A DNA stretch of 64,000 nt from Eledone cirrhosa (taxonomy: Eukaryota). A model generated the notes under the pieces. That model searched no databases and was not told the DNA's origin. It worked only from the letters and a program-made list of their open reading frames with translations. A program made the position numbers and the translations under genes. The number at the start of each line of letters is the position of its first letter. The stretch's first letter is position 1. Where the stretch lies: assembly GCA_964016885.1 (NCBI GenBank), contig OZ024743.1, positions 217,744,001 through 217,808,000 on the forward strand. Reading direction: 5' to 3'. Positions 6,221 through 17,930 of the stretch are shown in pieces.

Positions 6221-6520
6221 ATACATTATGAAGAGAGAAGAAACATTTAGATATAATTAGTAATAAAATGTATCATACCTAAACTGTTCCTAAATTCCTC
6301 GACTACGTAGTTTCGTGGCATAAACAAAAACAATATATCAAAGATATAGAGTCCTTGCGAGGTCTGCCGACTTATCAAGAGGATACCTCATTTTACTAGT
6401 CTCAAGAACGCGTCTACACGACGTGAGAAAGAATCCCAAAAGGCGGAGGGGGAGATAGTCACGCGATATAACGGTCGAGAAACAGAGCTAAGCCTCTTAT
6501 AACCACGAAGAAAATACCAC
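6221..6520 (-). mobile_element. PLE-type pLTR/non-autonomous repeat family B (second copy about 17765-17998)
   Basis: Colinear similarity with 17765-17998 (tacattat..agaagaaacattt, tttcgtggc, cttatcaagag, cgtgaga, aaggcggag). Abuts (TA)n and carries a hammerhead. Confidence 0.75.
6295..6384 (-). ncRNA. Type-I hammerhead ribozyme, family B (UUGAUAA core, long stem-II insert)
   Basis: Minus strand: tcctc-TTGATAA-gtcggca..[about 45 nt]..tgccac-GAAA-ctacgtag-TC-gagga. Confidence 0.75.
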
Positions 6521-6586
6521 GGAGCCGTTAATATGCATAAGGAAAGTATATACTTTCAGACGTTCAATCATCTGGCAGGAAGGTAT

Positions 6587-6629
6587 ACGGTGCTGACTAT
6601 AGCTAATAAGCTTGAAACTAGTACATCGT
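6587..6629 (+). ncRNA. Hammerhead family C, core mutated (CUGACUA)
   Basis: acggtg-CTGACTA-tagct aata agctt-GAAA-ctag-TA-catcgt. Identical copy at 8084-8126. Confidence 0.6.
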
Positions 6630-8083
6630 TCCTTTGTCAGTGTTGAACAAAAGGGCAACGATGGTTGCTAAACACTGTACGCCTTAATTCGGGATGTTTG
6701 TTTACAAACACACCGAGCATTATAATAAATGTTCGGTAAATCCATACGTACATATATATATATGTGTGCATGTATGTATATATATACATACTATTGTACG
6801 TATGTATACATATATTGTATGTATGTGTACATACTTATATTTAAGTAAAAGCCGTACTAAGAGTGAGGAATGAAATTTCGTTTCATTTTTTCCGTTTATA
6901 TATATATATATATATATATATATATATATATATATATATATATATATATATATATATAGCATACACTGATATATGTACATATAAGTATATAGATGGGTTT
7001 GTATATATATATATATATATATATGCGCACGCGCGTGTGTGTGCGTGTTTTAGTCATGTATTACCCAATCTCTTTACTTCGCTAACATTATATAATTTCA
7101 CAAATTATTGTAAATGCAGATGTATATTTCATATTTTACAATATAAACAGTCCCCCTTTTTATATTACATTTGTTTATATATTAAAGTAACACTTGCTCA
7201 TAACTTTACTAGTTATTCCCTTTCGTGTCCCATTTGTCTTGCTAAAGCTTTCCCAAAGTGAATGAATTTTCTCAGAATAAGATGTATACTTACTTTCACA
7301 CATACATACGTACGTACATAAATACATATACAGACACACATACGCTCACTCACTCACACACATACACACAGACTAACAAACACACACTCACACTCACACA
7401 TATATATATATATATATATATATATGTGTGTGTACGTACATACATATATGTATACAGACATATGTGTGAATGTATGTATATATATACATACATTCACACA
7501 TATATATATATGTACGTATGGATTTACCGAACATTTATTATAATGCTCGGATTCTTTGTAAACAAACAAACATCCCGAATTAAGCCGTACAGTGTTTAGC
7601 AACCATCGTTTCCCTTTTGTTCACGTCTGAAAGTATATACTTTCCTTATGCATATTAACGGCTGAGCAGCCTAATTTGCATATCGAGTGAGTTAATCGAC
7701 CGGGCGCACCGAAAATGATAAACGGAAAAAATGAAACGAAATTTCATTTCTCACTCTTAGTACGGCTGTTACTTAATTATAAGTATGTAAACGTATATAC
7801 ATATATGTATACAGACGTACAGTAGTATGTATATATATATACATACATGCACACATATATATATATGTACGTATGGATTTACCGAACATTTATTATAATA
7901 CTCGGTGTGTTTGTAAACAAACATCCCGAATTAAGCCGTAGAGTGTTTAGCAACCATCGTTGCCCTTTTGTTCAACACTGACAAAGGAATGTTCAATCAT
8001 CTGGCAAATTAGGCTGCTCAGCCGTTAATATGCATAAGGAAAGTATATACTTTCAGACGTTCAATCATCTGGCAGGAAGGTAT

Positions 8084-8126
8084 ACGGTGCTGACTATAGC
8101 TAATAAGCTTGAAACTAGTACATCGT
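8084..8126 (+). ncRNA. Hammerhead family C, core mutated (CUGACUA)
   Basis: Same as 6587-6629. Confidence 0.6.
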
Positions 8127-16399: not shown

Positions 16400-17065
16400 A
16401 ATTGTTTCTACTTTTGGCACAAGGGCAGCAATTATCCCAGTGCATTAACGGTACTTTGTTTTATCGACCCCGTAAGGATGAAAGGCAAAGTTTACCTCGG
16501 TGGGATTTGAACTCAGACCATAGAGGGATGTAACTCTATGCTGCAAAGCATGGCTTCTAACCCTCTACTGATACTGCCAATCCATATTTCCATTGTGAGT
16601 AAATCAGAGCCCATTATTAATGATAATGTTGGGCTCTGATTTAGTCACAACGCCAACAATTTGGGGAGAGGGGAATGTCGATTCAATCAACCCCAGTGCG
16701 TTACTAGTGCTTTATTTTATCGACCTCGTAAGAAGGAAAGGCAAAGCTAACCTCGGCAGGATTGGAACTAGACAGTAAAGGGCCGTAGCTCTATGCTGCA
16801 AAGCATGGCTTCCGACCCTCTACTGATACTGTCAATCCAATGATAATAGTAATACCGATTCCTAATTTAGACACGACACAAGGCGAGAAATTTGAGGCAT
16901 TGGAAACTTAATCAAATCGATCCCAGTACTTAAATGGTACTTTATCGACCCCAAAAGGATTAAAGAGAAATTAATCGCTGCTGGATTTAAAATCAGAACC
17001 GAAAGAGCTCTAAGTAAATGTTGCAAAGAATCTTGTCTTGTGTCCTCATCATTCTGTCAATCACC
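16400..17065 (-). mobile_element. Three tandem copies of the tRNA SINE (about 16400-16583, 16628-16840, 16853-17065)
   Basis: Each has tttatcgacc, a ggatttgaac-type B-box complement and a ctg(c/t)caatc A-box complement. Confidence 0.85.
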
Positions 17066-17482
17066 CTCTACCACCAAAACATAATGAAGACAATGATGAT
17101 GTAGTAGTAGCAGTAGTAGTAGTAGTAGTAGTAGTAGTAGTAGTAGTAGTAGTAGTAGTAGTAGTAGTAGTAGTAGTAGTAGTGTTTCTTTAATAGCTAT
17201 TGGGTTATAACGAAAAATCTAAAATGTTTTACGCAAGAATTAGTGCAAAGAATGTTGATGGATACATATACAATAAACAGAACAAGAACTACATTGAATA
17301 AAGCATTAAAAAAGATAAAATACACCCACATACACACCCACATACACACACACACACACACACACACATATATATATATATATATATATATATATATATA
17401 TATATATATATATATATATATATATATATATATATATTAAAATACAAATATTAATAAAATAGATGTTCTTTTGATCAATTAA

Positions 17483-17535
17483 ATTTTATTATACATATTT
17501 CAGAGGTACAACAGTACGTCCTCATCAGACAAAAT
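17483..17535 (-). ncRNA. Minimal type-I hammerhead (family D-related), canonical core
   Basis: attttgt-CTGATGA-ggacgtac tgtt gtacctct-GAAA-tatgta-TA-ataaaat. Confidence 0.8.
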
Positions 17536-17832
17536 ATAATGATACATGACATACCCTGAGATGTTAAATGGTTAAGATTTAATCAAGGTATATATATACA
17601 CAATATACAGAAATACACAGATACATGCGAATACATACATATACATGCATATACGCACATATATCCCTGAATTTGTGTGGTGCCAACCTTAACCGTTGTT
17701 GCTCTATGATTAATAGGGACAAAATAATCGGAATGAATTAGATTAACTCTATATCAGAGTTATATAATACATTATAAAGAAAGAAGAAACATTTGACATA
17801 AATAAAAAAAAAACAAATACCCAATATTCCTC

Positions 17833-17930
17833 ACATTCTCGACTGCGCAGTTTCGTGGCTACTTTGCAAAAACATTACATCATAGAGATGCAGTATTTCT
17901 GTGAGGTTTACCAACTTATCAAGAGAATAC
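17833..17930 (-). ncRNA. Type-I hammerhead family B (UUGAUAA core)
   Basis: attctc-TTGATAA-gttggta..tagccac-GAAA-ctgcgcag-TC-gagaat. Stems I and III covary with the 6295-6384 copy. Confidence 0.78.

What the first reader, a model, noticed from the sequence alone, without database searches (positions are those of the whole stretch)
6295..17930. Family B hammerhead: compensated U3:A8 core with covarying stems and an oversized stem-II domain
Seen: two diverged copies both read UUGAUAA instead of CUGAUGA. Stem I changes tcctc/gagga to attctc/gagaat, and stem III changes ACUACGUAGU to ACUGCGCAGU, both keeping pairing or palindromy before GUC. Stem II carries an insert of about 45-50 nt. Known: positions 3 and 8 form a Watson-Crick pair in the active fold, so U3:A8 is a compensated variant that CUGANGA-only searches miss. 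The double covariation argues for selection on the ribozyme.
Basis: partly seen in the sequence, partly recalled or inferred. Interest (0 to 1): 0.72.

Follow-up and report, generated by a model that had tools for sequence, protein, structure and literature searches.

The report
Long-armed hammerhead in a retroelement remnant
Two copies of a dispersed repeat have the full shape of a hammerhead self-cutting RNA with an already published U3:A8 core swap; they likely come from a Penelope-like jumping gene and are predicted to cut mainly when two copies pair, and their one unusual trait is a very long second arm that may dock onto the first arm through a small RNA knot.

Summary
Both copies lie on the minus strand (6296-6383, 17833-17930) and read UUGAUAA...GAAA-palindrome-GUC. 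All 33 modelled pairs hold in both copies, with 3 two-sided changes; the 11 core bases are identical. Reads from other family copies list no C3 or G8 change among the 40 best-supported of 101 differences, so U3:A8 is probably the family norm, not decay.

The headline is not new. U3:A8, the exact UUGAUAA core and 10-nt palindromic stems III are published for Penelope-like element (PLE) hammerheads.

What is unusual is stem II: 57 and 61 nt, against at most 24 nt in the published search pattern. It is a 5-bp stem, a loop that can pair 6 bp with the strand just 5' of stem I (a candidate pseudoknot, no two-sided change), and a 13-bp capping hairpin. An unconstrained two-molecule fold of copy 1 gives the double-hammerhead.

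Best reading: the 3'-end ribozyme of a (TA)n-targeting PLE, active mainly as a dimer, here left as solitary remnants. No link to a PLE reading frame, no expression and no cleavage were shown. New variant of a known kind; interest 0.35.

The parts
6224..6453 (-). Copy 1 of the repeat (3' end of element: 5' flank, hammerhead, U-rich tail)
   Evidence: blastn to copy 2, 73% identity over 234 columns, E 9e-27; alignment A1
6385..6390 (-). Copy 1: UGAGGU just 5' of stem I, candidate pseudoknot arm
   Evidence: pairs 6 of 6 with 6358-6363; inferred, no two-sided change
6379..6383 (-). Copy 1: stem I 5' strand (pairs with 6296-6300)
   Evidence: 5 bp, one two-sided change versus copy 2
6372..6378 (-). 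Copy 1: core U3-U4-G5-A6-U7-A8-A9
   Evidence: sequence
6315..6371 (-). Copy 1: 57-nt stem II domain: basal stem 6366-6371 with 6315-6319 (G10.1-C11.1, one bulge), loop strand 6358-6363, capping hairpin 6325-6357
   Evidence: (hairpin pair probabilities 0.96-0.99); fold z -2.25
6301..6314 (-). Copy 1: GAA, 10-nt palindromic stem III (6302-6311) and C17 (6301); predicted cut between 6301 and 6300
   Evidence: sequence; cut site from the hammerhead consensus, untested
6190..6223 (.). (TA)n run at the 3' end of copy 1, 77 nt past the predicted cut; likely insertion target
   Evidence: (TA)n preference of Neptune and Naiad PLEs from PMC8557442 passages
17761..17994 (-). Copy 2 of the repeat, including the shared tail 17761-17800
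   Evidence: tail depth and TA-rich loose ends at 17761 in 8 contigs of run X1
17929..17934 (-). Copy 2: UGAGGU, candidate pseudoknot arm (its last two bases can instead extend stem I to 8 bp)
   Evidence: pairs 6 of 6 with 17902-17907; 8-bp stem I
17923..17927 (-). Copy 2: stem I 5' strand (pairs with 17836-17840)
17916..17922 (-). Copy 2: core U3-U4-G5-A6-U7-A8-A9 (U3 = 17922, A8 = 17917)
   Evidence: no listed variant at 17922 or 17917
17855..17915 (-). Copy 2: 61-nt stem II domain: basal stem 17910-17915 with 17855-17859, loop strand 17902-17907, capping hairpin 17867-17901
   Evidence: (z -2.71)
17841..17854 (-). Copy 2: GAA, palindromic stem III (17842-17851) and C17 (17841); predicted cut between 17841 and 17840
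   Evidence: self-duplex 10 bp, -16.9 kcal/mol, no hairpin on its own
17998..18061 (.). (TA)32 run at the truncated 5' end of copy 2

Best explanation
These are two solitary copies of a multi-copy type I hammerhead motif with a U3:A8 core, likely left from the 3' end (pseudo-LTR) of a Penelope-like retroelement that inserts in (TA)n runs, and predicted to cut after GUC mainly when two copies pair through their palindromic stems III. Shown: the motif, its minus-strand position, structural conservation between copies, a multi-copy family and a tail ending at (TA)n. Inferred: (1) the 10-nt palindrome forms a 10-bp shared stem III between two copies of a tandem transcript; (2) the long stem II is a normal 5-bp arm whose loop strand docks on the strand 5' of stem I by a 6-bp pseudoknot, taking the place of the usual loop I-loop II contact, with a 13-bp hairpin capping the loop; (3) cleavage would process tandem element transcripts; (4) the two copies here, single and 11.5 kb apart, would rarely cut. 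Component odds: conserved hammerhead about 0.93, PLE origin about 0.75, dimer-dependent about 0.7, pseudoknot real about 0.55.
For: Motif and controls. Structure: 66 of 66 cells paired, 3 two-sided and 7 one-sided changes, slid controls 33-52% paired; placing the 13 substitutions at random breaks no pair in about 1.5 of 10,000 trials at 80% transitions. Family: summed contig depth about 6,000-7,000 over the 5' core half against 6-11 for the single long records of run X1; no row at U3 or A8 among 40 shown of 101; a third palindrome (both central bases changed) at about 44% in X1, and 9 of 13 and 8 of 13 reads in X5, so some reads carry both. Dimer: unconstrained homodimer fold of copy 1 is the double-hammerhead, -58.9 versus -45.2 kcal/mol for two monomers; copy 2 gives the same stems I and III with a shifted basal stem II, -60.1 versus -48.2; monomer stem III pair probabilities 0.11 or less. 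PLE context: RT plus GIY-YIG-like frame at 44285-46000 (atlas 0.96-0.98) with a relative at 84-1160; at least five other hammerhead types in the window, most within 15-143 nt of (TA)n. Literature: PLE hammerheads with U3-A8, palindromic stem III, dimer dependence and mostly solitary truncated copies (PMC4209133).
Against: No PLE reading frame was linked to this family; tblastn of four window frames found none near either copy, and no genome was available. Only two full sequences could be aligned, and the structure was drawn from them, which inflates the pairing tests; the partner-shuffle control is not significant (48 of 500). The pseudoknot has no two-sided change; such a match arises by chance about 3% of the time, and its conservation (11 of 12) is unremarkable against element-wide identity (P 0.16). 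One diverged locus in the raw reads appears to carry a mismatch in it (my reading of loose ends). In neither monomer is the catalytic fold the lowest-energy nested fold (-16.9 vs -22.6; -15.5 vs -24.5). One read locus has G5 changed to C (93 reads in X4, single start), so part of the family is decayed. 61 variant rows were hidden, so minor C3 or G8 copies are not excluded. It lacks the extra base between positions 9 and 10.1 typical of minimal PLE hammerheads.
Confidence: 0.58

Rival explanations
1. The repeat is a non-autonomous non-LTR retrozyme (a PLE derivative) that sits in tandem arrays elsewhere, makes small circular RNAs, and left these monomers.
For: Unit size of about 230-300 nt is in the range of animal retrozymes (170-400 nt, PMC7229834 abstract and passages); retrozymes occur as solo monomers and derive from PLE pLTRs (bioRxiv 2026.07.22.740005); no reading frame is linked.
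Against: Neither copy is tandem; the laid contigs and reads of copy 2 show no joints (table 5), though records were short; the tail ending at (TA)n is shared with a far larger set of repeats, as expected for element ends.
Confidence: 0.18
2. The fold is kept as a binding handle for the element's protein, and the RNA cuts poorly or only with that protein's help; cleavage is not what is selected.
For: The Anolis Poseidon hammerhead did not cut without the element's protein, and catalytic mutants did not affect insertion in vitro (PMC11167929 passages); PLE hammerheads cut weakly even as dimers (PMC4209133); competing monomer folds.
Against: All 11 core bases, including the 3:8 pair and GUC, are identical in copies that differ at 56 of 225 aligned positions (P 0.04 at element-wide identity); palindromy is kept through two different double changes.
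Confidence: 0.12
3. The pseudoknot makes each copy an efficient monomeric ribozyme with a 3-bp stem III and a tetraloop; no partner is needed.
For: Pseudoknots between stems I and II raise activity in many natural hammerheads (PMC3088659 passages); stem III has 3-4 possible pairs; pseudoknot helix about -7 kcal/mol as a duplex.
Against: The loop is palindromic in every variant seen, including a change at the two central bases that cannot pair within a monomer; the palindrome forms no hairpin alone.
Confidence: 0.1
4. Decay of a canonical CUGAUGA hammerhead, or a chance arrangement.
For: C to U and G to A are the commonest decay changes; one read locus has a broken core.
Against: Both copies and the best-supported read variants keep U3 and A8 together; 0 of 150 shuffles match.
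Confidence: 0.02

Closest known systems
PLE hammerheads of metazoans, especially the U3-A8 families of Schistosoma mansoni Cercyon elements (Cervera and De la Pena 2014, PMC4209133)
   Same: Type I, U3-A8 core (S. mansoni row 3 reads UUGAUAA), G10.1-C11.1, 4-5 bp stem I, palindromic stem III, AU-rich 3' flank, mostly solitary copies.
   Different: Stem II domain 57-61 nt versus at most 23 nt in the 56 aligned rows (descriptor cap 24 nt); 10-nt palindrome rather than 4 nt; no extra base after A9; candidate loop-flank pseudoknot; no PLE frame linked here.
PLE hammerhead variants with a longer palindromic stem III (Aedes aegypti rows 1-3, Saccoglossus row 2 of the same supplement)
   Same: 10-nt self-complementary stem III/loop; dimer-type design.
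   Different: Those have C3:G8 cores and short hairpin stems II.
Natural hammerheads with a stem I-stem II pseudoknot, and natural U3:A8 cores (Perreault et al. 2011, PMC3088659)
   Same: Base-paired contact between loop II and the strand flanking stem I; U3:A8 covariation.
   Different: There the pseudoknot was tested by mutation; here it is only predicted, and it comes from an internal loop capped by a 13-bp hairpin.
[quoted passage not shown]
   Same: Needs a double hammerhead (title seen in reference lists); helix I-helix II loop contacts control cleavage (review passage). An extended helix II with a pseudoknot is recalled, not read.
   Different: A plant satellite RNA, not a genomic repeat; by recall type III and with an inhibitory pseudoknot.
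Non-LTR retrozymes (PMC7229834; bioRxiv 2026.07.22.740005)
   Same: Short non-coding unit with a type I hammerhead in an animal genome.
   Different: Defined by tandem units and circular RNAs; neither was seen here.

Membership tests
Type I hammerhead ribozyme | Core N3-U4-G5-A6-N7-N8-A9 with a Watson-Crick 3:8 pair, G12-A13-A14, A15.1-U16.1, H17 | tested here: met
   Both copies, U3:A8 variant, GUC site
Type I hammerhead ribozyme | Three helices around the core, open at stem I | tested here: met
   66 of 66 cells paired; double-hammerhead is the lowest-energy dimer fold of copy 1
Type I hammerhead ribozyme | [quoted passage not shown] | tested here: inconclusive
   6-bp pseudoknot possible in both copies; no two-sided change; chance about 3%
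Type I hammerhead ribozyme | Match to an Rfam hammerhead model | tested here: inconclusive
   No hammerhead match up to E 10 in either region, but the canonical-core motif at 17483-17535 in the same scan was missed too
Type I hammerhead ribozyme | Self-cleavage 3' of H17 | not testable with these tools
   Needs an assay
Minimal PLE hammerhead (min-HHR, Cervera 2014) | Palindromic stem III / loop 3 | tested here: met
   10-nt palindromes in both copies; third palindrome in reads
Minimal PLE hammerhead (min-HHR, Cervera 2014) | Stem II 3-7 bp with a 3-10 nt loop; no stem III beyond 4 nt | tested here: not met
   57 and 61 nt stem II and 10-nt stem III, against the descriptor in supplement Fig. 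S7
Minimal PLE hammerhead (min-HHR, Cervera 2014) | Extra base between positions 9 and 10.1 | tested here: not met
   A9 is followed directly by G10.1; optional in the descriptor
Penelope-like element pLTR | Lies downstream of, or flanks, an RT plus GIY-YIG reading frame | tested here: inconclusive
   No frame near either copy; most published copies are also solitary; no genome held
Penelope-like element pLTR | Hammerhead near the 3' end, short tail, insertion at (TA)n | tested here: met
   Copy 1 ends at (TA)n 77 nt after the site; other copies end at 17761 in TA-rich sequence. Typical of some clades, not unique to PLEs
Naiad clade of PLEs (Craig 2021) | Similarity to the published cephalopod Naiad consensus 3' ends | tested here: not met
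   Four family motifs absent from the supplement; 3' ends of the two Octopus consensuses read by eye look unrelated
Non-LTR retrozyme | Tandem units each with a hammerhead | tested here: not met
   Both window copies solitary; arrays elsewhere in the genome not testable
Non-LTR retrozyme | Abundant linear and circular RNA | not testable with these tools
   No RNA run was offered

The most novel reading that the evidence does not exclude
A distinct architecture of retroelement hammerhead: a dimer-type U3:A8 core whose stem II loop docks on the stem I flank by a pseudoknot and carries a 13-bp cap that binds the element's protein, so that cutting is gated. Such motifs are invisible to the published descriptors on two counts, so long-armed hammerheads may be common in PLE families now scored as lacking a ribozyme or having only a 'half core'.
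Probability: 0.25. Interest if true: 0.58.

Novelty: new variant of a known kind. Interest (0 to 1): 0.35.

Why it matters
The U3:A8 core adds nothing new. The long capped stem II matters modestly: published PLE hammerhead searches cap stem II at 24 nt (PMC4209133) or the core spacer at 17 nt (PMC8557442), so families like this one are missed and counts of ribozyme-free PLEs may be too high. It is also a ready natural test of whether a base-paired loop contact can lift the weak activity of dimer-type PLE hammerheads, whose role in transposition is still open.

Tried and rejected
No genome was held, so no copy census or R-scape run. Rfam: no hammerhead among 150 shown of 206 window matches nor in two focused scans; uninformative because a canonical-core motif was missed as well. 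Collection scans: viral 52 loci, all chance; metagenome strict pattern 0 loci; relaxed pattern 19 loci, none with both palindrome and stem I of 5 bp or more; L061 had a palindrome but lies in a bacterial coding frame. The two-copy covariance model found no third copy in the window and nothing under E 0.13 in the 71 loci. Naiad origin: rejected. A conserved hairpin 5' of the ribozyme: not supported (z +0.86 in both copies). One search used a mis-registered structure and is superseded. The copy 1 palindrome duplex was sliced one base off (8 bp, -10.5), so only the whole-dimer fold is cited for it. Pfam gave only sub-threshold hits for 2 of 8 frames; the atlas hit for 36179-36670 is weak (0.83). 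Sequencing runs: no RNA holder listed. Scan notes: nothing by place, by sequence or for long stem II. Lunse et al. 2017 and Song and Miller 2004 are not held; the Octopus vulgaris repeat library is on Zenodo and could not be seen.
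Full report
Observation. The window is AT-rich, microsatellite-rich animal DNA. I take it to be a mollusc, probably a cephalopod; this is a guess from sequence character and from atlas neighbours, not a tested assignment. The finding covers two homologous segments, 6224-6453 and 17770-17994 (73% identity, E 9e-27). On the minus strand each holds a type I hammerhead motif: stem I, UUGAUAA, a long stem II, GAA, a 10-nt palindrome, C17 and the stem I partner. A descriptor with U3:A8, a palindrome of 10 nt or more and stem I of 5 bp or more matches twice in the window and in 0 of 150 shuffles; it was written after seeing the motifs. 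Core-only hits in other collections behave as chance: none of 52 viral loci and none of 19 metagenome loci has both a palindrome and a stem I of 5 bp or more.

Anatomy. Stem II is not an unstructured insert. It is a 5-bp basal stem with G10.1-C11.1 and one bulge, an asymmetric internal loop, and a 13-bp capping hairpin (pair probabilities 0.96-0.99 in copy 1 and 0.57-0.96 in copy 2; fold z -2.25 and -2.71). The 5' strand of the loop, ACCUCR, is complementary to UGAGGU one base 5' of stem I, where type I hammerheads make their loop I-loop II contact. With this pseudoknot the model has 33 pairs, all kept in both copies: 3 change on both sides (stem I, cap, stem III) and 7 on one side. Differences fall at 0 of 11 core columns, 13 of 66 paired positions and 22 of 40 unpaired non-core columns; random placement of the 13 changes spares every pair in about 1.5 of 10,000 trials at 80% transitions and 2.4-2.9 of 1,000 at 100%. 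These tests lean my way because the structure was drawn from the same two sequences, and the partner-shuffle control is not significant (48 of 500). The pseudoknot is the weakest part: no two-sided change, about 3% chance complementarity, and conservation (11 of 12) that is significant against unpaired columns (P 0.001) but not against element-wide identity (P 0.16). In copy 2 it competes with an 8-bp stem I and with a 5-bp partner 3' of the site.

The family. No genome was held, so I laid four of six listed runs on copy 2 at 80% likeness. They share few exact words with the window (0.08-0.15) and may be a related population or species, although one loose end in X5 matches the flank of copy 1 at 30 of 30 bases (6394-6423, compared by eye). 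Summed contig depth is about 6,000-7,000 over the 5' core half against 6-11 for the long single records of X1, which suggests hundreds of copies; the tool warns that this is no copy number. The tail at 17760-17800 reaches 38,000 and is shared with other repeats. Of 101 variant rows 40 are shown, the best supported, down to shares near 29%; none is at U3 (17922) or A8 (17917). Position 7 varies (U to A), as allowed. The two central bases of the palindrome change at matching rates (43% and 45% in X1; 9 of 13 and 8 of 13 reads in X5), giving a third palindrome in at least some copies; CpG decay could contribute. Loose ends of a diverged subfamily suggest a C-G second pair in stem II and a rearranged but paired cap (my reading by eye). 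Against: one locus has G5 changed to C (93 reads in X4, 103 in X5, one start), and another seems to carry a mismatch in the pseudoknot.

How it likely works. As monomers, stem III barely forms (pair probabilities 0.11 or less) and the catalytic fold is 6-9 kcal/mol above the best nested fold. As homodimers, the unconstrained fold of copy 1 is the double-hammerhead with a 10-bp shared stem III (-58.9 against -45.2 kcal/mol for two monomers); copy 2 gives the same stems I and III with a shifted basal stem II. That fits the dimer mode described for PLE and amphibian hammerheads (PMC4209133, parts 1-2 of 4; PMC6765202 and PMC7229834, passages). The setting fits a PLE 3' end: copy 1 ends in (TA)n 77 nt past the site, 8 contigs end the same way at 17761, and copy 2 is cut at its 5' end by (TA)32. 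The window holds an RT plus GIY-YIG-like frame (44285-46000; atlas 0.96-0.98; Pfam below threshold), a relative at 84-1160, and at least five other hammerhead types. No frame was linked to this family, so PLE origin is inferred. I put the whole chain at 0.58. The main rivals are a retrozyme-type derivative (0.18), a protein-binding fold that cuts poorly (0.12; the Anolis Poseidon hammerhead needed protein and was dispensable in vitro, PMC11167929 passages) and a pseudoknot-driven monomer (0.10).

What is known. Natural U3:A8 covariation is reported in PMC3088659 (section 8 and passages). PMC4209133 counts about 1,300 U3-A8 motifs in S. mansoni PLEs; its supplement (file 2, all three parts; file 1 could not be searched) lists a UUGAUAA core and 10-nt palindromic stems III. 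Pseudoknots between stems I and II are common and tested (PMC3088659). The longest stem II domain among the 56 rows of its Fig. S3 is 23 nt by my count, and the descriptor allows at most 24 nt; PMC8557442 used a 7-17 nt spacer and marked eight Naiads as 'half core' (passages). This family does not match the published cephalopod Naiad consensuses (part 24 of 59 read). I found no description of a PLE hammerhead with a capped stem II of this size in nine searches. Lunse et al. 2017, the most relevant survey of PLE hammerhead variants, and the satRPV papers were not available, nor the Octopus vulgaris repeat library (PMC13282606, passages and supplement search); any of these may bear on novelty. 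Also seen as passages only: PMC6155905, PMC3185516, PMC6962438, PMC10085705; bioRxiv 2026.07.22.740005 as part 1 of 5 and passages. Earlier scan notes report U3:A8 PLE hammerheads in several other genomes; they are leads, not support.

Verdict. A real, structurally conserved hammerhead family. It works like a dimer-type PLE hammerhead but fails the size definition of the minimal class, and membership in a PLE is likely, not shown. The core variant is known; the long capped stem II with a candidate pseudoknot is the variant part. New variant of a known kind, interest 0.35.

Noticed in passing
window 34847-34884 (-) and about 2120-2160 (+): A second, small U3:A8 hammerhead family (UUGAAAA, 13-nt stem II, ACCGGU palindrome) at the end of an 870-nt repeat (1340-2178 versus 35659-34826, 84% identity), about 15 nt before a TA run and next to PLE-like coding remnants; stem I looks eroded in the copy near 2120.
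   Followed up: partly
window 21289-21354 (-), 21496-21561 (+), 32705-32764 (+): Canonical-core hammerheads with a 31-nt stem II containing an internal loop; the first two sit in a near-perfect inverted duplication (21239-21611). Long stems II are thus not confined to the family studied.
   Followed up: partly
window 17483-17535 (-): Canonical-core hammerhead about 350 nt downstream of copy 2 on the same strand; both lie in a 560-nt block bounded by TA runs. Its flanks resemble those of the 21289 family, including a CAGGGUAUGUCA motif that looks like a 5' splice site.
   Followed up: partly
window 40627-40686 (-); 34505-34547 (+), with decayed relatives near 6570-6615 and 8070-8115: Two more hammerhead types: one with a 12-bp stem II, one of minimal type. 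The copies near 6570 and 8070 have lost the core (CUGACUA).
   Followed up: partly
window 44285-46000 (-), 84-1417 (-), 35910-36670 (-): Remnants of RT / GIY-YIG reading frames of at least two PLE-like families; no hammerhead was found just downstream of the 44285 frame.
   Followed up: partly
window 49245-52740 and 55119-58590: Two tandem copies (80% identity) of a LINE-like element with endonuclease and RT frames on the minus strand, each preceded by an ORF1-like frame with a CCHC knuckle; resembles L1-Tx1 by recall.
   Followed up: no
window 17761-17800 and 6225-6260: The U-rich tail has about six times the contig depth of the ribozyme, and loose ends show other sequences joined to it, so several repeat families share one 3' tail.
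   Followed up: partly
window 2506-2662, 13416-13599, 16396-16584, 16642-16840, 31726-31946, 46566-46773, 63528-63675: A dispersed repeat of about 190 nt with a B-box-like motif; probably a tRNA-derived SINE.
   Followed up: no
PMC8557442 supplement, part 24 (3' ends of Naiad_Obim and Naiad_Ovul): GAAA lies upstream of CUGAUGA with complementary segments around both, which looks like a permuted or pseudoknotted hammerhead rather than a 'half core'. Seen by eye only.
   Followed up: no
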